This document shows, in pieces, positions 1,649 to 12,051 of a stretch of 64,000 nt of DNA. Each line of letters starts with the position of its first letter. Position 1 is the stretch's first letter. A program made the translations under genes and the position numbers. Source of the DNA: a virus (Duplodnaviria; Caudoviricetes); the IMG/VR virus record IMGVR_UViG_3300042508_000526; one strand, written 5' to 3'. Below the pieces are notes generated by a model. It did no database searches. It had not been told where the DNA came from and worked only from the letters and a program-made list of their open reading frames with translations.

Positions 1649-2018
1649 GTTTCTTTTTGATTTTGATGGGGTGAGTAAACCGGTCAGAAATTGCGGTGTC
1701 TGTCACGCGCAGATTAAATAGTTTGTGACTGTCGCAGTCGTTGAGCCATGTCGGCTTGATTGGAATTACTTGCGCAAACTCGTTATTGCCAACGAGCAGT
1801 TTGCTATTTATTTCGCAATTTATGTCGCGATGCGGATCGCAATTAAACGCATACGCAGAAAAATCATCGGCGGGATCTCCGTTACTGGTCAGAAAGACGC
1901 CGTCGCTATGCACTAGGTAGAGTGCCGGCAACTGCAGACTAGTTTTGAAGCGCGTCGATTGGCGCGCATGCTGAATGCACCTCTTCACCTCCTGCGTTCG
2001 AAATTTGCAGATTCCCAC
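1617..2018 (-). CDS. DUF3085 family protein
   Basis: LYLVHSDGVFLTSNG...AYAFNCDP motif. Confidence 0.65.
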   Translation of the reverse strand: MGICKFRTQEVKRCIQHARQSTRFKTSLQLPALYLVHSDGVFLTSNGDPADDFSAYAFNCDPHRDINCEINSKLLVGNNEFAQVIPIKPTWLNDCDSHKLFNLRVTDTAISDRFTHPIKIKKKHGKSKRIVKG

Positions 2019-2376
2019 TGGTAAGTTCCTTCTCTAAGTTTTTGCCGCGGCCAAACATCCATCGGTGTTCTTCAGTTTCTGGCTTTATGCAGCGGAACCA
2101 GTCGGCCACTGTGGGAATGCGACCGAGATCTTCGGTTATGTGCTGCTCGCCGATATATCGCACTGGCACGCGGCGGCCGTCTGAATTGATAATTACCGTG
2201 CCAAAGATTTTTTCCGCCATAAAAATACCTTCGGTGTGGTGCCGAAGGGCTCGGTGGCGAAAGTCTGCCATGTGCGCTTTAGACCCATCAAACCAGTCGT
2301 GGATCGGCAAATAATCGTCTACTTCGCCGCCCCATTTTTTCACTGACGACAGCGCGTGGTGATAGGGATGTGCCAT
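1939..2376 (-). CDS. DUF6915 family protein
   Basis: MAHPYHHALSSVKKWGG...IHDWFD...HRALRHH...GEQHITEDLGRIP. Confidence 0.8.
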   Translation of the reverse strand: MAHPYHHALSSVKKWGGEVDDYLPIHDWFDGSKAHMADFRHRALRHHTEGIFMAEKIFGTVIINSDGRRVPVRYIGEQHITEDLGRIPTVADWFRCIKPETEEHRWMFGRGKNLEKELTSGNLQISNAGGEEVHSACAPIDALQN

Positions 2377-3202: not shown

Positions 3203-3643
3203 TCACATTTCGTAGCTAGAAGAATTGACTTCCTGAATACGTTCGTTGTGGTCTACGGTGATTTTTTTGGTCTCCGTATCAATAGTGATTTCGCCGTAAC
3301 TACCGTCGTTGATTTCCCAGCCGCCGGGCAGGATTGAAAACAGATAGTCTTCAAATCTGTCTATCTGCTGCTCGGTGATGATGCGCCTATCGACCGGCAC
3401 GTCGGCGATATAAGTTTTGCGCAGTGTGTGCGACGTAATGTAGTTTGAACCGCCTGCTCCCGCGTGAAAAGCGCTATCGCCAGTGTCCTTGTTGTCGAAG
3501 CGATAATCGATCGAATCAAAATCGCCGGAGTCGCCTTGACCGTCGTAGGCGGCTAGTACGCTTTTTACGCCCAGCGTTTTCAGCACGCCGCAGAAGTCTT
3601 TGATGTTGTCAACTGGCGTTTTTTCTTGTTTGCTTTTAGCCAT
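3203..3643 (-). CDS. DUF6878 family protein
   Basis: YDGQGDSGD...LPGGWEINDGSYGEITID motif. Confidence 0.75.
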   Translation of the reverse strand: MAKSKQEKTPVDNIKDFCGVLKTLGVKSVLAAYDGQGDSGDFDSIDYRFDNKDTGDSAFHAGAGGSNYITSHTLRKTYIADVPVDRRIITEQQIDRFEDYLFSILPGGWEINDGSYGEITIDTETKKITVDHNERIQEVNSSSYEM

Positions 3644-4977: not shown

Positions 4978-5343
4978 CTAAAACGAGAAATCATCGCCGT
5001 CATCAACACTATCGTCAAAATCGTCTTCTGTCGGCCAATTTATATCTAGACCGCGTGCGCATAATTCGTCTTCTTCTTCGGGATGCTGCTCCAGCCAGTC
5101 GAAAAACCACGACACGCAATTTTTCTGCTCTGTGGCTGTGGGCCTACGCGGCTCTTCTCCCTCAAGAAGTATTCTGTCGCACGCAGCGTTTTCTACAATG
5201 GCTCGCGCTGGTATGACGAAATAATCGCCAGCCGGCTTTTCTGTTTCTATCAAAAATTCGACGTCAAACTCCAACGTGCCGGCTTTGCCAGTCGGATTGC
5301 AGCCTGTTTCATCCTCAATTAGCCACGTAACTGTTGCGCTCAT
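4978..5343 (-). CDS. Hypothetical acidic protein
   Basis: 121 aa, start coupled to the upstream stop. Confidence 0.65.
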   Translation of the reverse strand: MSATVTWLIEDETGCNPTGKAGTLEFDVEFLIETEKPAGDYFVIPARAIVENAACDRILLEGEEPRRPTATEQKNCVSWFFDWLEQHPEEEDELCARGLDINWPTEDDFDDSVDDGDDFSF

Positions 5344-5606
5344 TATTGCACCACATGAACGTTGTAGTGCTGCATCTTGGAGTGCAACCAGTTTGCTTCA
5401 GCTTCAAGCGCACCAGCGCGAGACTTAAACCCAGAGAGCAGCGGACCACCGACAGGCGATAAGTCTGCTATCCACTCTCCGGGTTTAGTGTCGTTTGGTT
5501 CAACATGACTGGCGCGTTTTATATCAAGACTGCCCAGTTTAGCGAGATTGATTTCTTCGCCGTATAAACACTGCGCGGTCCCGTTTGGGCGGATGAATAG
5601 TTGCAT
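5343..5606 (-). CDS. Small conserved protein of the AAA+/DUF1257 cluster
   Basis: YGEEINLAKLGSLDIKRASHVEP...WIADLSPVGGPLL; translationally coupled. Confidence 0.7.
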   Translation of the reverse strand: MQLFIRPNGTAQCLYGEEINLAKLGSLDIKRASHVEPNDTKPGEWIADLSPVGGPLLSGFKSRAGALEAEANWLHSKMQHYNVHVVQ

Positions 5607-6616
5607 TAGTTTGCACTCCCGCTGGTGGCCATGATACGTCGCCCCGGGGCGAGCACTCGCGTATCTACTGGCCGGTTAAGCGGCCTCGCCGGCTGACTGC
5701 CCATTGCCGGTCGCTCGTGCGGGCTCACATTGTACGACTGAAACGTCGCAACGTTATTAATACGTAGCCCTGCAAACAATGCTTGATCGTGTGTACGTTC
5801 GCGCACGTAATTTCCGGCGTCGTGCACCGGGCTAAAATGCAGCGTGCAGCCTAGCGCCTTGGCATGACCCGCAAACTCAAGAAGACCCGAAATCTCACAG
5901 TCGCACAGCACAACGTGGTCGACAACTCGCAGACGATTTAACTCATCATTCTGTTCGTTTTCGTGGATGTTCGGGTAGAAATGATTCAACTGGCGCAACG
6001 TGGTATTTACAAGCCGCGCAAAACCACCCACGCTAACGCATCCGTGCAGCACGGAGTTAGAAATTTTTGCGTTACCGCCGGCTTTGGCCACGCCTTCAAG
6101 CGTTGTGTCAATGAGCGTTACGTTGTCATACACTTTTGCGTTATCGCGTATGCTGGCGTTTCGAATGTACGGCTGACCGCGGCTGTGATGAAAAATCACT
6201 GCTTTGTGATTTACAACGGTTGAACCACAAAGCAAACCGTTGTAAACCTCGGCGTGACCTAGCACACGCACACTATCTCGCAGCACCGCCACGCCGCCGA
6301 CGACAGCAAAGTTACAAATTTCAATGCAAGTCCTGTCGGCCACAATGTCGGCAAATCCGCACACACGGGCGCGGTTTTGAATTTTTACGTTGCCGCGGAT
6401 AGTGGCGCCGTTCATTACCTGCGCCATGCGACTGACGAACACAGAGTCTTCTACTTTGGCCGAATCCTCTACCCAGCCAAGGCCGTTGACATGCTTATGC
6501 GCAAATACTCTTCCGCGTCCATCTTTAAAATCATGCTTTGACGCCCGTTTCTTTTTTATTTTTACGGGCGCAACGTCGGGCTTAATGTCCGACGGTGCAG
6601 CATCAAGTGTCAGCAT
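5606..6616 (-). CDS. Left-handed beta-helix (hexapeptide-repeat-like) protein
   Basis: Repeated [AV]-x-[VI]-x-[GD]-[NH] hexads (SAKVED, ARVCGF, AEVYNG, AKVYDN). Confidence 0.6.
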   Translation of the reverse strand: MLTLDAAPSDIKPDVAPVKIKKKRASKHDFKDGRGRVFAHKHVNGLGWVEDSAKVEDSVFVSRMAQVMNGATIRGNVKIQNRARVCGFADIVADRTCIEICNFAVVGGVAVLRDSVRVLGHAEVYNGLLCGSTVVNHKAVIFHHSRGQPYIRNASIRDNAKVYDNVTLIDTTLEGVAKAGGNAKISNSVLHGCVSVGGFARLVNTTLRQLNHFYPNIHENEQNDELNRLRVVDHVVLCDCEISGLLEFAGHAKALGCTLHFSPVHDAGNYVRERTHDQALFAGLRINNVATFQSYNVSPHERPAMGSQPARPLNRPVDTRVLAPGRRIMATSGSAN

Positions 6617-7557
6617 TACGACTCCAGCGGCATAACGCGCCGACGCGGCGCATTCGTGATCAAGGTATCGAGTGACGTTTGCAGCTCGGCCATCGAGGTG
6701 CGCAGCTGCGTCTGCAGCGTGTTGTTCTTTCGCAGATCCTTGACGTCAACGCCCGCAACAAGACTGTTTGCCTGCTCGATTAAATTTTCAAGCTGCGCGT
6801 TTGACCGCACATTCATATGCTTGAAGTTCTCGTAAAACTCCTTGAAGTTTTCGATGGCGCTGGCACGAAACGTTTTCTTCGTACCGTCGGGCTCGTCTGT
6901 AAGACGCTCGACAAGATGAGCAACCAGCTCCTGTAGGTTTTCCGCAAACGCATTTTCGGCCATAGCCACAGCTGCCTCAAACCGCCGCTGCACGCGGTCC
7001 TGCTCGGCGCGATAAACGCCCGGGTTTAGCGCAACAAGATATCGCGGCGGCTCGATGGGCGGATACTCCCAAGAGATCTCAAACACGTTATCGAGCGTAG
7101 CCGGATAATCGTTCGGGTTAAACAGGCTGCCAAGCTTCTGCCGCGCAGCATCTTTAATCGCGTCGTACTCAAGCTGCAGGTTTGCAACAGCCGCGGCTAG
7201 CTGATCGCGAAAACCCTGCATTGTTTCTTCGAAGCGGGCGATGTCGTCCTGCTTGATCAGGCGCGTACCTTCTTGCGGATACGGTAGCGTGATTCCACGC
7301 CAGAAAGCCTGTGCTTGGCTCTTGATCGCCGTCACGGCGCGATAGGCCGGATTCTTAGTATCAATCAAACGCTTGGACGCCGTTACAAGCGATGTGTCTG
7401 CTTCAAACGTATCGGCGGCCTGTTTTGTCTGCGCGTCAGACAACTTGCGCTGCGTACCCAACCACGAGAACGATAACTTGACTGCGCCCATTGTCTGGCG
7501 CAGATCGTTAGCGGTCTGCTCTACGGTCGGGGTTTCTGTGGTTTCTGTCGTTGACAT
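6616..7557 (-). CDS. DUF3150-like helical protein
   Basis: SKRLIDTKNPAY...TLPYPQEGTRLI...FNPNDYP; long coiled-coil character. Confidence 0.6.
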   Translation of the reverse strand: MSTTETTETPTVEQTANDLRQTMGAVKLSFSWLGTQRKLSDAQTKQAADTFEADTSLVTASKRLIDTKNPAYRAVTAIKSQAQAFWRGITLPYPQEGTRLIKQDDIARFEETMQGFRDQLAAAVANLQLEYDAIKDAARQKLGSLFNPNDYPATLDNVFEISWEYPPIEPPRYLVALNPGVYRAEQDRVQRRFEAAVAMAENAFAENLQELVAHLVERLTDEPDGTKKTFRASAIENFKEFYENFKHMNVRSNAQLENLIEQANSLVAGVDVKDLRKNNTLQTQLRTSMAELQTSLDTLITNAPRRRVMPLES

Positions 7558-7592
7558 TCAGTGTTTCCCTTGGGGCTACTCATTGTTTATCA

Positions 7593-7637
7593 GCAATCCG
7601 CAGCTGCGGGGCTTGCGCCCCGCAGCCGCAGTATTGC
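7593..7637 (-). other. Long GNRA-capped intergenic hairpin
   Basis: GCAAT..GCGGCTGCGGGGC-GCAA-GCCCCGCAGCTGC..ATTGC; G-U pairs form on the minus strand; no U-tract. Confidence 0.6.
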
Positions 7638-7644
7638 CAATGCC

Positions 7645-9129
7645 TCAGCTCTTCGACGGGGCCGCCACACGGCGGCGCGACGAGCTAGCGGGTGCCTGCT
7701 TTCCCACTCGCGTATAAATTCCGCGATTGTCGGCCGATAGGCACCGGCCCTCAGCCCAGTGCCGCAGGCTTTCAATCTGTTCGGCGGACGTTACCGCAAC
7801 TGGTACGACGTTCTGCGCCGCTTCGGTAAGCGGCACATCAAGCAGCGCTGCCAGCCTGCAGCACGACTTGATCTCGGCGCCGGTCCAGTTGGTGTCGTCC
7901 GGCTTTTCCTGCGACGGATCGACACCGAAATGGTTTAGATAGATATTCCAGATCGCAGCGCGCTGCTCGGGACCCGGTAGATCCACGAAGAACACGCCGT
8001 CGAAGCGCTCGGCACGAGCGAACGGCGCCGGAAGCTGACTGGCGTCGTTGCAGGTACCGATAAAGAAAACATCGCTGGTGTGGTCATTGAGCCATGTAAG
8101 CAGCGTACCAAACAGCCGCGCCGAAACGCCGCTATCCGTCTGCCCAGAACTCTGCACGCCAGACAGGCCCTTCTCGATCTCGTCGACAAAGAGCACGCAT
8201 GGCGCCATGGCGTCGACCTGCTTTAGCGCGCGACGCATGTTACCCTCGGACTCGCCGACAAACTTGCCCATCAGGCTGCCGAAGTCGAGCATGACTGTCG
8301 GCCGACCAACTTCGTTACCCAGCGCCTTGGCAAACTGCGACTTTCCGCAGCCCGGCGGCGACAGCAGCAGCACACCCTTGGGGCGCTTGTCTACGTTCGT
8401 CTCGCCCTGTCGCCGCATTGCGCGGAGACAGAATGACTTCAGGTTTTCGAGGCCGCCAAGATTCTCAAAGTTGGCATCACCCCGATACAGCGTCATAGTC
8501 CCGCTCTTTTCGAGCGTCTGCGATTTGATATTCCAGATCGTGTCTGGAATCAGCTTGTTATTGTGAACAAGCGAGAGTGCGTATGCGTTCTCGGCCTCAA
8601 GCCGCGTAAGACCGCGAGAAGCGTCAACTACAACCGCGATCTCCGCGTCCGTCGGCTTGGCAAACGCAGAATCAGCCGTGAATAAGTTGTTGCAGACCTT
8701 GGTGAGCTGTTCCTGATCGGGCAGCTCGTGATGCACAACCGTAAACAGCTTCTCAACCTCGGGCTGCAGTTGGAGCACCGGCGCCACGATCACGATGTGC
8801 TGACCGTCGCCCTTGCCCTTGACTACCCGATTGGCCAACGCCTGCAGCACCTCGGGGTTGCCGAGAAACCGATGAAAGTTCTTCAAGACCAGAATCGACG
8901 TCGGCTTCGTCTGCGGCTGGTCTAAGAACTGAAGCGCCTGCATCGGACCCGGCGCGGCAAATGAGCCGGAGTAAAGCTTGCGGTCGATATCCCAGATATC
9001 AAAACCCCAATCCTTGTCTTCAGCCGCCTGCCGGATCGTATCGACAGCATCGTCGCATTCGTGCGATTCAACCCAGATGCCGGAGAAGCCGGCGCAAACA
9101 AGTTCCTTGATTTCTTTTTCGAGCGACAC
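7645..9129 (-). CDS. Ycf46-like AAA+ ATPase
   Basis: Walker A SPPGCGKS, Walker B LFVDEIEK, sensor GTCND, Arg finger RAERFD; degenerate N-terminal AAA domain. Confidence 0.9.
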   Translation of the reverse strand: MSLEKEIKELVCAGFSGIWVESHECDDAVDTIRQAAEDKDWGFDIWDIDRKLYSGSFAAPGPMQALQFLDQPQTKPTSILVLKNFHRFLGNPEVLQALANRVVKGKGDGQHIVIVAPVLQLQPEVEKLFTVVHHELPDQEQLTKVCNNLFTADSAFAKPTDAEIAVVVDASRGLTRLEAENAYALSLVHNNKLIPDTIWNIKSQTLEKSGTMTLYRGDANFENLGGLENLKSFCLRAMRRQGETNVDKRPKGVLLLSPPGCGKSQFAKALGNEVGRPTVMLDFGSLMGKFVGESEGNMRRALKQVDAMAPCVLFVDEIEKGLSGVQSSGQTDSGVSARLFGTLLTWLNDHTSDVFFIGTCNDASQLPAPFARAERFDGVFFVDLPGPEQRAAIWNIYLNHFGVDPSQEKPDDTNWTGAEIKSCCRLAALLDVPLTEAAQNVVPVAVTSAEQIESLRHWAEGRCLSADNRGIYTRVGKQAPASSSRRRVAAPSKS

Positions 9130-9162
9130 GGTTTACCTTTGTTGTGTGAGGTCTGGTTAAAG

Positions 9163-9354
9163 TTAGTTCTGCTCGGTGATCTGCTGATCGTTGCTGGCCT
9201 GATAAAACTCGCCGGTCAGCTGCTCATCAATCGTGGCGCCCAGCGCCTTTTCAAGCTCGCGCGTAGCGTCCTGACACGAGCTGCCGGTGAAGCCGCTCGT
9301 AGAGATCTTCGTCTCGCCCTTGGGGGTGATGGTGATTTCAATAGTCTTGGTCAT
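9163..9354 (-). CDS. DUF2997 family protein
   Basis: IEITITPKGETKISTSGFTGSSCQDATRELEKALG. Confidence 0.85.
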   Translation of the reverse strand: MTKTIEITITPKGETKISTSGFTGSSCQDATRELEKALGATIDEQLTGEFYQASNDQQITEQN

Positions 9355-9356
9355 AT

Positions 9357-9719
9357 TCAGAATCCTCCCGTAAGGTTGAGCTTGATCGAACCGTCCGACA
9401 GCATTTCCTCGTACACCGAGTAGCCGCCCTTCTGCGCCTCATAAATCGCCTTCTCTACGGCGTAAGCCTGCAGGAACTTATCAAGCTCCTCCTGCTTACC
9501 CCACGAGCCGTTGTAGTTATCAAAATCAACGGCGCCCGTCTCCAGATTGCACACGACGGGATACTGCCAGCCGGGCAGAGTTACGCCCAGCCCTTCGCGC
9601 TCCACGGCGAATACCCGGAACTTGCCGCTCACCGGGTCCTTGAGTCCTAGCCGGCGGCAGGCGGCCTGCACAGCAGCCGCGTCCTTGACTTCAGTCTTAA
9701 TCTGTACGATGTGAGACAT
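9357..9719 (-). CDS. DUF1257 (Ycf35-like) family protein
   Basis: MSHIVQIKTEVKD...DNYNGSWG...QAYAVEKAIYEAQKGGY; start moved to ATG 9719 (GAGG RBS). Confidence 0.85.
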   Translation of the reverse strand: MSHIVQIKTEVKDAAAVQAACRRLGLKDPVSGKFRVFAVEREGLGVTLPGWQYPVVCNLETGAVDFDNYNGSWGKQEELDKFLQAYAVEKAIYEAQKGGYSVYEEMLSDGSIKLNLTGGF

Positions 9720-11387: not shown

Positions 11388-11750
11388 TTATTTGCCTGTT
11401 TTGTAGGCCGGCGGTACGTCGCAATTTTTTTCGCGCAACGTACCGGCGTTTAGGTGCGGCCATTTCTCAAGCGAGTGGATAGCGCCTATCAGATTCCACG
11501 TCGCATGCCCGAGATGATCTTCCGACCGATCGCCACCCAAGAAATTAAAGATATGCGCTATGGCGTGGTTGAGCAGATCCGCGACTGGCATTCCGTTTTC
11601 CCAGTTGTGCGAACCAAATTTCACGGCGCCTTCGTGATACGTCCTAGCGAGCGCACGCAAGCCGATTGGCGATATCAAATCGTATCGGACTTGATCGCAG
11701 TCATCGCTACGGACAGCGCCGGTGTCATATTCATGTCGTCCCTCTGACAT
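11388..11750 (-). CDS. dATP/dGTP diphosphohydrolase domain protein (DUF5664)
   Basis: GAVR...RYDLISP..L..LA..Y..GA.K.G..NWENG...HAIAH...EDHLGHA.WN. Confidence 0.85.
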   Translation of the reverse strand: MSEGRHEYDTGAVRSDDCDQVRYDLISPIGLRALARTYHEGAVKFGSHNWENGMPVADLLNHAIAHIFNFLGGDRSEDHLGHATWNLIGAIHSLEKWPHLNAGTLREKNCDVPPAYKTGK

Positions 11751-12051
11751 GTTCAACCTTTATCGGTTTGAATGAGAAATAAAAACGCGGATCTTTATTG
11801 AACGCCACAGTTCCCGCAACGCCGTCAGCCTTCCGAATTACGTGCACATACGGCGGATCGAAATGCGAGACCTCAAACTCTTCAAGAAGCTGCTCTGCGT
11901 TCCACAGCTGTTCGCCATAATTCTGTTCAAGAATTTGTCGCAGCTCGTTTATGTCGCGGTTTTTGAACTGGTCGTGAAGGACGTTTATGAGCGTCTGCCG
12001 CGCTGCGTCGAGTTGTATTTGTGTGCCTAGGTCATTCGCTTTGTGCTGCAT
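11731..12051 (-). CDS. Conserved hypothetical protein
   Basis: WNAEQLLEEFEV..F.PPYVHVIRKADGVAGTV.F...PRFYFSF; start uncertain (12051 or 12078). Confidence 0.65.
   Translation of the reverse strand: MQHKANDLGTQIQLDAARQTLINVLHDQFKNRDINELRQILEQNYGEQLWNAEQLLEEFEVSHFDPPYVHVIRKADGVAGTVAFNKDPRFYFSFKPIKVEHVRGTT

What the first reader, a model, noticed from the sequence alone, without database searches (positions are those of the whole stretch)
5343..9719. Phage-borne Ycf46-like AAA+ / DUF1257 / DUF2997 / DUF3150 machine
An operon of DUF1257, DUF2997, an intact AAA+ ATPase (degenerate N-terminal ring plus active ring), a coiled-coil DUF3150-like protein, a beta-helix protein and an 87-aa protein. Ycf46 and Ycf35/DUF1257 are known neighbours in cyanobacteria and plastids with unresolved function. 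A complete copy with extra subunits on a phage implies a discrete ATP-driven remodelling complex with adaptors and a helical substrate, perhaps acting on membranes or against host defence (inference).
Basis: partly seen in the sequence, partly recalled or inferred. Interest (0 to 1): 0.72.

Follow-up and report, generated by a model that had tools for sequence, protein, structure and literature searches.

The report
Phage five-gene AAA+ remodelling module
A 203-kb lake phage carries an intact, widely conserved but unstudied set of five genes: a Cdc48-like protein-unfolding ATPase and four dedicated partners. The ATPase and several neighbouring proteins end in the same short arginine-rich tail, which gives a concrete way to test how the machine picks its partners.

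Summary
Six co-oriented, mostly overlapping minus-strand genes at 5343-9719 encode DUF1257, DUF2997, a 494-aa AAA+ ATPase, a DUF3150-family protein, a beta-helix protein and an 87-aa protein. The ATPase has a dead D1-like tier and an active D2 tier.

The conserved unit has five genes: DUF1257, DUF2997, AAA, DUF3150 and the 87-aa protein. It recurs in that order on a Nitrospirota plasmid. In five Planctomycetota genomes, 11 of 11 ATPase copies have all four partners beside them. It also occurs with shuffled gene order in unrelated phages. DUF3150 is the most constant partner, and some phage records hold only AAA plus DUF3150. The beta-helix gene is confined to this phage lineage, where it sits between DUF3150 and the 87-aa gene.

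The ATPase, DUF3150, the beta-helix protein and one more protein are the only 4 of 250 ORFs in this genome ending in an RRR[VI]-type tail. ATPase and DUF3150 tails co-vary across lineages. I read the tail as a shared docking tag of a Cdc48-like unfoldase.

The target is unknown, and I found no support for a membrane or anti-defence role. No paper describes the module. This scan has already noted it on other DNA (36 notes, at least 26 genomes).

The parts
9357..9719 (-). DUF1257 (Ycf35-like) protein, 120 aa. The N-terminal Met-Ser-His, D67 and Y86 are invariant.
   Evidence: PF06868 at 23.2 bits against a cut-off of 22.2. phrog_20456. Family alignment A3. MSH is present in 108 of 114 distinct family members.
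9163..9354 (-). DUF2997 protein, 63 aa. It always sits directly after DUF1257.
   Evidence: PF11211 E 5e-17. It is adjacent to DUF1257 in phage, plasmid and Planctomycetota loci.
7645..9129 (-). AAA+ ATPase, 494 aa, with a degenerate D1-like tier (about residues 1-212) and an active classical AAA tier. Motifs: Walker A GCGKS (K263), Walker B DE316-317, pore loop KFVG, sensor N361, Arg fingers R372 and R375. The C-terminal tail is disordered.
   Evidence: PF00004 E 3e-28. phrog_8638 E 4e-80. The model aligns to p97/Cdc48/Rix7 D1-D2. Invariant catalytic residues in alignment A2. Internal duplication found by hhalign.
7666..7677 (-). Codons for RRRV (residues 485-488), the shared C-terminal tail on the ATPase.
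   Evidence: The tail is kept in phage, plasmid and Planctomycetota homologues. R486 is nearly invariant.
7589..7641 (-). 24-bp GC-rich stem-loop between the AAA stop codon and the DUF3150 start codon. It has no U tract.
   Evidence: Free energy -48.6 kcal/mol, z -6.6 against shuffles. Most close relatives have a hairpin of different sequence at the same place.
6616..7557 (-). DUF3150-family protein, 313 aa: an N-terminal alpha/beta domain, a C-terminal four-helix bundle and a C-terminal tail PRRRVMPLES.
   Evidence: The window protein itself is weak against PF11348 (E 0.004), but 10 of 15 relatives match, best 1.3e-20. AF2 model pLDDT 85. Structural neighbours are viral DUF3150 clusters. It lies next to the ATPase in nearly all distant loci.
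6634..6645 (-). Codons for RRRV (residues 305-308), the shared tail on DUF3150. R306 is invariant in the family.
   Evidence: Alignment A1. All 44 complete bacterial DUF3150 copies carry the tail. It co-varies with the ATPase tail.
5606..6616 (-). Left-handed beta-helix (hexapeptide-repeat) protein, 336 aa, basic (pI 9.3). It is a lineage-specific insertion between DUF3150 and the 87-aa gene and ends in ...GRRIMATSGSAN.
   Evidence: Weak Hexapep hit and phrog_7964. YdcK-like weak hits. Found in 37 loci: 34-35 closely related phage loci plus weak hits. Absent from 80 bacterial loci. The tail is conserved in those relatives.
5630..5641 (-). Codons for RRIM (residues 326-329), the shared tail on the beta-helix protein.
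5343..5606 (-). 87-aa 'RASHVEP' protein with no Pfam family. It is the fifth conserved member and lies directly after DUF3150 everywhere else.
   Evidence: The homologue on plasmid CP114559.1 scores E 1.4e-29. 12 of 12 DUF3150 genes in five Planctomycetota genomes are followed by it. The family has 2646 cluster representatives. Nineteen columns are invariant.
3203..3643 (-). DUF6878 protein, a possible lineage-restricted accessory gene.
   Evidence: PF21798 E 5e-17. The same family lies between DUF2997 and the ATPase gene in 25 of 80 Planctomycetota loci.
1939..2376 (-). DUF6915 protein, a possible lineage-restricted accessory gene.
   Evidence: PF21866 E 1.6e-47. It is 69% identical to a Planctomycetota protein that lies between DUF2997 and the ATPase gene. 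The family is present in 27 of 80 bacterial loci.

Best explanation
The locus encodes a five-protein AAA+ remodelling machine that travels on mobile DNA (phages, plasmids and multi-copy elements of Planctomycetota).

The motor is a Cdc48/p97-like ATPase. An inactive D1-like tier serves as a platform and an active D2 tier carries a threading pore loop, so it probably forms a hexamer that unfolds or pulls apart a protein target (inferred from the fold and motifs).

DUF3150, together with its ever-present 87-aa neighbour, is the ATPase's dedicated adaptor or first client. DUF1257 and DUF2997 form a second, accessory pair.

The ATPase, DUF3150 and, in this phage, the beta-helix protein and a 174-aa protein each end in a short basic-hydrophobic tail ([KR][KR]x[IVL]). 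I read this as a common docking tag that brings these proteins to one site of the complex, so a lineage can add new clients simply by giving them the tail (inference).

Shown here: gene content, conservation, catalytic motifs, fold, tail distribution and tail co-variation. Inferred: the hexamer, physical contacts, the role of the tail, and the target. The target is probably a protein handled during establishment or replication of the element.
For: 1. Domain identities and intact catalytic residues. The whole ATPase model aligns to p97/Cdc48/Rix7 D1-D2. The N-terminal tier is a degenerate AAA copy.

2. Conservation beyond synteny.
- The same five genes occur in the same order on plasmid CP114559.1 of Ca. 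Manganitrophus.
- Of 39 bacterial loci with enough flank, 27 hold all five.
- In five Planctomycetota genomes, all 11 high-scoring ATPase genes have DUF1257 upstream and DUF3150 plus the 87-aa gene downstream, and 12 of 12 DUF3150 genes are followed by the 87-aa gene.
- In phages whose ATPase is only 29-48% identical, the partners stay nearby while the order changes. Examples are AAA-DUF3150-DUF1257-DUF2997, AAA-DUF1257-DUF2997-DUF3150 and DUF3150-AAA-DUF1257-DUF2997.

3. The tail.
- Only 4 of 250 ORFs in the phage genome end with it. Three are adjacent module genes, against a background of 0.5% per 14-aa window.
- The fourth protein keeps the tail in 5 relatives.
- All 44 complete bacterial DUF3150 copies and 65 of 80 ATPase copies carry it.
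- ATPase and DUF3150 tails from the same genome are more alike than shuffled pairs: p 0.0015 over 14 genomes, and 9 of 40,320 permutations reach the observed score for 8 hand-picked lineage representatives.
- In other phages, unrelated small proteins next to the ATPase carry that phage's version of the tail.

4. One database protein fuses a DUF3150 body to the 87-aa domain. This is weak evidence because it is a single case.
Against: - No physical interaction has been shown.
- The receptor for the tail is not identified. Only the ATPase and DUF3150 are universal, so the site must lie on one of them or on a host protein.
- The tail co-variation tests treat related genomes as independent, and the eight representatives were hand-picked, so the p values are optimistic. 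Roughly five lineage-level concordant changes carry the signal.
- Inserted cargo genes in Planctomycetota loci mostly lack the tail, so adjacency alone does not predict it.
- In many distant relatives the pore-loop aromatic residue is Leu, which is less typical of strong unfoldases.
- Nothing in the window points to a target.
Confidence: 0.5

Rival explanations
1. The module is an ATP-dependent protease of a new kind. DUF1257, perhaps with DUF2997, is the peptidase core. The ATPase docks on it through its C-terminal tail, as HslU does on HslV or proteasomal ATPases do on the 20S core. Other tail-bearing proteins compete for, or are delivered to, the same pockets.
For: DUF1257 has an invariant extreme N-terminus Met-Ser-His (108 of 114 distinct sequences) plus invariant Asp67 and Tyr86. 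That is the kind of conservation expected of an N-terminal nucleophile or a catalytic set. Docking of the ATPase through its tail would explain why the motor itself carries the tail. That ATPase C-terminal tails dock on and activate peptidase cores in HslUV and the proteasome is established knowledge, not tested here.
Against: DUF1257 has no detectable relation to any peptidase or to any solved structure. AAA+DUF3150 pairs keep their tails in phage records where DUF1257 and DUF2997 were not found, although those records are only 30-86% complete. Adjacent Ser-His is not a usual catalytic geometry and could equally be a metal-binding or recognition N-terminus.
Confidence: 0.1
2. The tail is a binding motif for a hub protein outside the module, for example a sliding clamp or another host factor. 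In that case the module works in replication or repair of the element's DNA rather than as a self-contained unfoldase complex.
For: Several unrelated proteins sharing one short terminal motif is the pattern of hub-binding peptides (general knowledge of clamp-binding motifs). The tail version changes with lineage, as expected if it tracks a host partner. Recurrent neighbours in bacterial copies include a PD-(D/E)XK nuclease and JAB proteins, and the plasmid copy sits beside JAB and HNH genes. I did not test that note.
Against: In this 203-kb genome no replication protein carries the tail. Only the three module genes and one 174-aa protein of unknown function do. The tail does not fit the bacterial QL[SD]LF clamp motif (my comparison, from memory of that motif). 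The motor has a threading pore loop like protein unfoldases, not the features of a clamp loader.
Confidence: 0.12
3. One reading: the machine remodels membranes (like Vps4 with ESCRT-III) or counteracts host defence.
For: The ATPase belongs to the classical clade that includes Vps4/CdvC (CdvC model E 1e-18 on the AAA domain). The module is confined to mobile elements and sits near JAB and Fic genes on a plasmid, a setting where anti-defence genes are common (general knowledge).
Against: None of the module proteins has a hydrophobic segment (maximum Kyte-Doolittle 19-residue mean 1.4). PADLOC gives only AAA-domain-level hits to IetA. The ATPase has a D1-like tier where Vps4 has a MIT domain.
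Confidence: 0.08
4. The genes are neighbours that are inherited together but do not form one machine, and the basic tail is a generic feature such as nucleic-acid binding or a localisation signal.
For: No interaction has been demonstrated. Within the close phage family the whole region, including genes of no known link, is syntenic.
Against: Linkage survives gene-order shuffling and transfer between phages, a Nitrospirota plasmid and Planctomycetota chromosomes. The tail is on 4 of 250 ORFs and co-varies between ATPase and DUF3150.
Confidence: 0.08

Closest known systems
Cdc48/p97/VAT-type double-tier AAA+ unfoldases with dedicated cofactors (e.g. Ufd1-Npl4, Shp1)
   Same: The full-length model aligns with the D1-D2 tandem (Foldseek E about 1e-20, TM up to 0.61). 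It has classical-clade Walker A/B, a pore loop, sensor 1 and two Arg fingers. It is accompanied by small dedicated partner proteins.
   Different: It has no N-terminal double-psi-barrel cofactor domain. The first tier has lost its P-loop. The partners (DUF3150, DUF1257, DUF2997 and the 87-aa protein) are unrelated to any known Cdc48 cofactor. It scores far below the CDC48 family cut-off (82 against 803 bits). The C-terminal tail is shared with partners.
Cyanobacterial and plastid Ycf46 (AAA ATPase), Ycf35 (DUF1257) and DUF2997
   Same: The same three Pfam-level families are involved. DUF1257 and DUF2997 both ring in Synechococcus elongatus in the control searches. DUF2997 and ycf35 are adjacent in cyanobacteria (PMC4284462). 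The function of Ycf46 is still unresolved: it is stress-induced and KaiC-interacting (PMC13683863).
   Different: The cyanobacterial set is chromosomal and, in the two papers I read, ycf46 and ycf35 are not in one operon. Neither paper mentions DUF3150 or the 87-aa protein. I did not test direct orthology of the phage ATPase to Ycf46.
Docking tails of proteasomal and HslU-type ATPases (HbYX, HslU C-terminus; GQYL shared by mycobacterial Mpa and Bpa). This comparison comes from general knowledge.
   Same: A short C-terminal peptide on an AAA+ ring is also found on non-ATPase partners and is used for docking at a common site.
   Different: The sequence here is basic-hydrophobic ([KR][KR]x[IVL]) and often not at the extreme end. 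No peptidase core is recognisable. The receptor is unknown.
AAA_5 (CobS/MoxR-like) / DUF3150 / VWA gene sets of IncC- and IncHI2-type plasmids, as reported in earlier notes of this scan and not re-tested here
   Same: A DUF3150 protein with a C-terminal tail is paired with an AAA+ ATPase on mobile DNA.
   Different: The ATPase belongs to a different clade (MoxR/CobS, no threading pore loop). The adaptor is a VWA protein instead of DUF1257, DUF2997 and the 87-aa protein.

Membership tests
Classical AAA+ ATPase (PF00004), Cdc48/p97-like double-tier architecture | Walker A GxxGxGK[ST] and Walker B hhhhDE | tested here: met
   GCGKS with K263 and VLFVDE316-317. They are invariant or nearly invariant in 20 diverse homologues. 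PF00004 E 3e-28.
Classical AAA+ ATPase (PF00004), Cdc48/p97-like double-tier architecture | Second region of homology: sensor-1 Asn and two Arg fingers. Pore loop 1 of the form aromatic-hydrophobic-Gly. | tested here: met
   N361, R372 and R375 are invariant. The pore loop is KFVG in the window, but LVG in many distant relatives.
Classical AAA+ ATPase (PF00004), Cdc48/p97-like double-tier architecture | Two stacked AAA-fold tiers in one chain | tested here: met
   The model aligns over about 530-560 columns to D1-D2 of p97, Cdc48 and Rix7. hhalign pairs the N-terminal half with the AAA core at E 3.7e-5, probability 71%. The first tier lacks a P-loop.
Classical AAA+ ATPase (PF00004), Cdc48/p97-like double-tier architecture | Hexameric ring, ATP hydrolysis and substrate threading | not testable with these tools
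CDC48 family proper (TIGR01243) | Score over the curated family cut-off, with the N-terminal cofactor-binding domain present | tested here: not met
   82 bits against a cut-off of 803. Only the AAA tier matches.
Ycf46 (cyanobacterial/plastid orthologue group) | Orthology to ycf46 (reciprocal best match or tree position) | not tested
   No Ycf46 reference sequence was available through the tools. The nearest bacterial homologues found are from Planctomycetota, at 51-60% identity.
DUF1257 (PF06868) | Score over Pfam's gathering cut-off | tested here: met
   23.2 bits against 22.2. Relatives score better: 34.6 bits in phage HJ05. An iterated profile joins them.
DUF2997 (PF11211) | Score over Pfam's gathering cut-off | tested here: met
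   61.9 bits against 24.1, covering the full model length.
DUF3150 (PF11348) | Score over Pfam's gathering cut-off for the window protein itself | tested here: not met
   16.9 bits against 24.9. The Pfam model also misses the Planctomycetota copies.
DUF3150 (PF11348) | Homology through intermediate sequences and a shared fold | tested here: met
   Ten of 15 aligned relatives match PF11348, best 1.3e-20. The nearest predicted structures are viral DUF3150 clusters, TM 0.75-0.88.
Vps4 / ESCRT-III-type membrane remodelling pair | MIT domain on the ATPase, an ESCRT-III/PspA-fold helical hairpin partner, and membrane association | tested here: inconclusive
   The N-terminal half is an AAA-like tier, not a MIT domain. 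Fold searches with DUF3150 listed only generic helical bundles. There are no hydrophobic segments.
Known anti-phage defence systems (PADLOC) | Match of the partner proteins to a catalogued system | tested here: not met
   The only matches are AAA-domain hits to IetA (E 6e-16) and weak noise for DUF3150. Nothing matches DUF1257, DUF2997, the beta-helix protein or the 87-aa protein.
ATP-dependent proteases (HslUV, ClpXP, proteasome type) | A recognisable peptidase subunit or domain in the operon | tested here: inconclusive
   No peptidase family matched any module protein. DUF1257 does have an invariant N-terminal Ser-His plus Asp, and its role is unknown.

The most novel reading that the evidence does not exclude
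The short arginine-rich C-terminal tail is a portable address tag of a mobile-element unfoldase. Any protein that acquires it is handed to the same Cdc48-like motor. Here those proteins are a beta-helix protein and a 174-aa protein; in other phages they are sets of unrelated small proteins. DUF1257, with its invariant N-terminal Ser-His, may be the catalytic end-point, which would make this a new family of ATP-dependent processing or degradation machines.
Probability: 0.2. Interest if true: 0.85.

Novelty: new variant of a known kind. Interest (0 to 1): 0.62.

Why it matters
The module is common. The 87-aa family alone has 2646 cluster representatives, and Planctomycetota genomes carry up to five copies. 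It crosses phages, plasmids and chromosomal elements. It contains four families with no known function and no solved structure.

Working out what it does would assign a role to DUF1257, DUF2997, DUF3150 and an unnamed family at once. It could also shed light on the long-unresolved cyanobacterial and plastid Ycf46 and Ycf35.

The shared, co-evolving tail turns 'function unknown' into a direct experiment: find what binds the tail, and what a trap mutant of the ATPase holds.

Cultured phages carry related versions. Aeromonas phage HJ05 and Rhizobium phage L338C have the ATPase, DUF1257, DUF2997 and a weak 87-aa-like gene; Mycobacterium phage Corndog has the ATPase only. So genetics is feasible.

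Tried and rejected
- **Complex prediction.** ATPase (A2) with DUF3150 (A1) scored 0.01 and gave no verdict. I do not use it either way.
- **RNA evidence.** No RNA holder was listed among 24 lake-water runs that hold the stretch, so nothing can be said about expression.
- **DNA similarity.** blastn of the locus against GenBank phages found no match.
- **Fold searches with the DUF3150 model.** Foldseek against the PDB gave nothing at E <= 0.001. VIA-align against 48,161 chains gave only generic four-helix-bundle matches to residues 179-309 (Z up to 9.8, within the range the tool calls unspecific for helical bundles). The N-terminal alpha/beta domain was barely tested.
- **Profile searches of the PDB.** Searches with DUF3150 and DUF1257 found only noise.
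- **Bacterial genome searches.** A DUF3150 alignment could not be used to scan bacterial genomes because no stretch was conserved enough, so I used the ATPase alignment instead. Pfam's DUF3150 model found nothing in five Planctomycetota genomes that do hold the subfamily, so Pfam-based counts undercount it.
- **Promoter and terminator scans.** They gave no more sites than shuffled sequence.
- **PADLOC.** No system matched.
- **Clamp-motif reading of the tail.** Considered and ranked low, because no replication gene of this genome bears the tail.
- **Literature.** Searches for DUF3150, DUF1257, DUF2997, DUF6915, DUF6878 and their Pfam accessions found no functional study.
- **First wide protein search.** A search with DUF3150 returned only close relatives from the same abundant phage group.

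Full report
**Setting.** The window is part of a 203,206-bp IMG/VR virus record with direct terminal repeats. It encodes a large terminase and collagen-like tail fibres and two tRNAs. Near-identical sequence occurs in lake-water metagenomes from more than 20 studies. The finding lies in a long run of minus-strand genes.

**Observation.**
- Pfam gives DUF1257 (23.2 bits, just over the cut-off), DUF2997 (E 5e-17), AAA (E 3e-28), a sub-threshold DUF3150 hit (E 0.004), weak hexapeptide repeats, and nothing for the 87-aa protein. PHROGs agrees and places the ATPase in phrog_8638 (E 4e-80).
- The genes abut or overlap by one base: 6616 is shared by DUF3150 and the beta-helix gene, 5606 by the beta-helix and 87-aa genes, and 5343 by the 87-aa gene and the next gene.
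- The one 87-nt gap, between the ATPase and DUF3150 genes, holds a 24-bp stem-loop (-48.6 kcal/mol, z -6.6). Most close relatives have a hairpin of different sequence at the same position.
- Consensus promoter and terminator scans gave no more than chance.

**The ATPase.**
- Walker A (K263), Walker B (D316, E317), the KFVG pore loop, sensor N361 and Arg fingers R372 and R375 are intact and conserved across 20 homologues down to 29% identity.
- The AlphaFold model (pLDDT 83) matches the D1-D2 tandem of p97, Cdc48 and Rix7 over its whole length.
- A profile comparison of the two halves aligns residues 35-186 with the AAA core (E 3.7e-5). The 'ILVLKNFHRF' strand lies on the Walker B strand and 'ELPDQEQL' on 'DLPGPEQR'.
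- The last 25 residues are predicted to be disordered.

**DUF3150.**
- The window protein is a true but divergent member. In an alignment of 15 homologues from the fetched loci, ten match PF11348, the best at 1.3e-20.
- The model (pLDDT 85) has an N-terminal alpha/beta domain (residues 12-175) and a C-terminal four-helix bundle. It is not a coiled coil.
- The nearest predicted structures are virus-dominated DUF3150 clusters.
- Nothing convincing turned up in the PDB.

**How far the set is conserved.** I fetched 68 viral loci that encode relatives of the ATPase and labelled their ORFs with iterated profiles.
- In the close family (ATPase at least 68% identical) the whole region is syntenic, which says little on its own.
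- In phages with 29-48% identity the picture is informative. A DUF3150 gene lies next to or near the ATPase gene in almost all of them, with DUF1257 and DUF2997 in a subset and the gene order shuffled.
- The L049/50/52/55/56 group has ATPase, DUF1257, DUF2997 and the 87-aa gene but no detectable DUF3150.
- Five records with ATPase plus DUF3150 have no DUF1257 or DUF2997 anywhere in the record. These records are 30-86% complete.
- Among cultured phages, Aeromonas phage HJ05 and Rhizobium phage L338C have ATPase, a roughly 210-aa protein, DUF1257, DUF2997 and a weak 87-aa-like gene.

**Outside viruses.**
- A 199-kb plasmid of Ca. Manganitrophus (CP114559.1) carries AAA, DUF1257, DUF2997, DUF3150 and an 84-aa gene in a row. 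The 84-aa protein is a clear homologue of the 87-aa protein (E 1.4e-29).
- A scan of one genome per species found 364 matching stretches. The best 80 (51-60% identical to the phage ATPase) are almost all from Planctomycetota.
- The commonest architecture there is DUF1257-DUF2997-AAA-DUF3150-87aa, the same order as in the window. All five genes are present in 27 of 39 loci with enough flank.
- In five large Planctomycetota genomes the correspondence is one to one. All 11 high-scoring ATPase genes have DUF1257 within about 2.3 kb upstream and DUF3150 plus the 87-aa gene downstream. All 12 full-length DUF3150 genes are followed within about 30 nt by the 87-aa gene. Copy number is 1-5 per genome, with decayed remnants as well.
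- The beta-helix profile found 37 loci, 34-35 of them among the roughly 46 closely related phage loci, and none among the 80 bacterial loci. In this lineage the beta-helix gene has been inserted between an otherwise inseparable gene pair.
- The 87-aa family has no Pfam model but is large: 2646 representatives at E <= 0.001 and 1303 at <= 1e-10. Nineteen columns are invariant, including the RASHVEP motif, W45, D48 and R63.
- One representative fuses a DUF3150 body to the 87-aa domain. A single case could be a sequencing artefact.

**The shared tail.**
- The ATPase ends ...SRRRVAAPSKS, DUF3150 ends ...PRRRVMPLES and the beta-helix protein ends ...GRRIMATSGSAN.
- Among 250 ORFs called across the whole phage genome, only four have such a motif in their last 14 residues. 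They are these three adjacent genes and a 174-aa protein about 7 kb away, just outside the window. The motif occurs in 0.5% of internal 14-residue windows.
- The 174-aa protein keeps the tail in five relatives while the residues before it vary.
- The tail is general. All 44 complete bacterial DUF3150 copies and 65 of 80 ATPase copies have it, and so does the plasmid copy.
- Its exact form changes with lineage, and it changes in step on the two proteins. Examples are RRRVAAP/RRRVMPL, KRRVVRA/RRRVVRR, KKRNINV/RRKINFK, GRKLDI/KRAIDF and TRGVEL/KRAFEL.
- Same-genome pairs score higher than shuffled pairs: p 0.0015 over 14 genomes, and 9 of 40,320 permutations reach the observed score with eight hand-picked lineage representatives. 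Relatedness inflates these numbers. About five independent concordant changes are the real basis.
- In phages without a detectable DUF3150, several small proteins next to the ATPase carry that phage's tail although their bodies are unrelated.

This is the pattern of a portable docking tag that recognises one co-evolving site. Because only the ATPase and DUF3150 are universal, the site is most likely on one of them. A host hub cannot be excluded.

**Other features.**
- DUF1257 starts with an invariant Met-Ser-His (108 of 114 distinct sequences; the exceptions are truncated or very divergent) and has invariant D67 and Y86. It has no relative in the PDB.
- None of the module proteins has a hydrophobic segment.
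- Two further window genes, DUF6878 (3203-3643) and DUF6915 (1939-2376), belong to families that lie between DUF2997 and the ATPase gene in 25-27 of the 80 bacterial loci, but in none of the distant phages. They are either lineage-restricted accessories or co-transferred neighbours. They also point to gene exchange between this phage group and Planctomycetota elements, which makes Planctomycetota the likely hosts (inference).

**Interpretation.**
- The best-supported reading is a Cdc48-like unfoldase with dedicated cofactors, in which the C-terminal tail acts as the docking tag.
- DUF3150 with the 87-aa protein is the constant adaptor or first client. DUF1257 with DUF2997 is an accessory pair.
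- The beta-helix and 174-aa proteins are clients that this phage lineage has added.
- The rivals are a new ATP-dependent protease with DUF1257 as the core, a tail that binds an external hub such as a clamp, a membrane or anti-defence role, and mere co-inheritance. They are set out separately with their tests.
- The target is unknown. The company the module keeps (nucleases, JAB and Fic on the plasmid and in bacterial copies) suggests a role in establishment or replication of the element, but that is inference.

**Comparison with what is known.**
- I found no paper on the module or on DUF3150.
- Cyanobacterial Ycf46 remains a stress-induced, KaiC-interacting ATPase of unclear mechanism (PMC13683863). 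DUF2997 and ycf35 lie beside fed7 in Synechocystis (PMC4284462).
- The scan itself has met this module many times (36 notes in at least 26 genomes). My conclusions on the five-gene core, the Planctomycetota copies and the tail agree with those notes.
- New here are:
  - the genome-wide one-to-one counts;
  - the permutation test of tail co-variation;
  - the fourth tail-bearing protein;
  - the link to DUF6878 and DUF6915;
  - the invariant N-terminus of DUF1257.

**Verdict.** This is an undescribed variant of a known kind of machine, an AAA+ unfoldase with cofactors. It is of moderate to high interest because it is widespread, wholly uncharacterised and now directly testable.

Noticed in passing
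L040:6939-7721 (also L041, L043, L044, L053, L054): In six related phage contigs the ATPase gene is split exactly between the Walker B Asp and Glu codons (...VLFVD | EIEKGL...) by a group I intron (Rfam RF00028, 68.6 bits, E 5.6e-17) that carries an HNH endonuclease ORF. The window's copy has no intron.
   Followed up: partly
L063:2795-4279, L065:2087-3622 (also L066, L069): In these ATPase homologues the Walker B segment (GFIDEIEKGLAG...) lies before the Walker A motif and is missing from its usual place. This looks like a permutation of the AAA core, and it is seen in several separate contigs.
   Followed up: no
window 7589-7641 (-): A very stable 24-bp stem-loop with a GCAA loop and no U tract lies between the ATPase and DUF3150 genes. 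Relatives have a hairpin of different sequence at the same place, and some have an extra DUF1281_C-like gene inserted there (L075:7537-8151). It may be a processing or stoichiometry-setting element.
   Followed up: partly
G000:C1:14476-15000 (-), about 1.3 kb before the window start (L074:4477-5001): A 174-aa protein of no known family is the only ORF outside the module that ends with the module's tail (...KKTKRRLVAMAT). The tail is conserved in five related phages.
   Followed up: partly
window 1939-2376 (-) and 3203-3643 (-): DUF6915 (E 1.6e-47, 69% identical to a Planctomycetota protein) and DUF6878 (E 5e-17) lie downstream of the module. In Planctomycetota copies the same two families sit inside it, between DUF2997 and the ATPase gene.
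   Followed up: partly
window 11388-11756 (-): A 122-aa protein matches the N-terminal domain of dATP/dGTP diphosphohydrolase (PF18909, E 9e-15). This may hint at nucleotide-pool manipulation by the phage.
   Followed up: no
L139 and L151 (same contig JBGTBF010000201.1); G009 (five copies): Planctomycetota genomes hold several complete copies of the module, two of them about 15 kb apart on one contig, plus decayed remnants. This suggests a multi-copy mobile element whose borders I did not map.
   Followed up: no
L050:8967-10567: A phage with a 37%-identical ATPase has four consecutive small genes that all end in ...[KR]RR[KR]I[IF]S[IV]KTL[KQE]EL. Three are paralogues and one is unrelated in its body. 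This looks like an expanded set of tail-tagged clients.
   Followed up: partly
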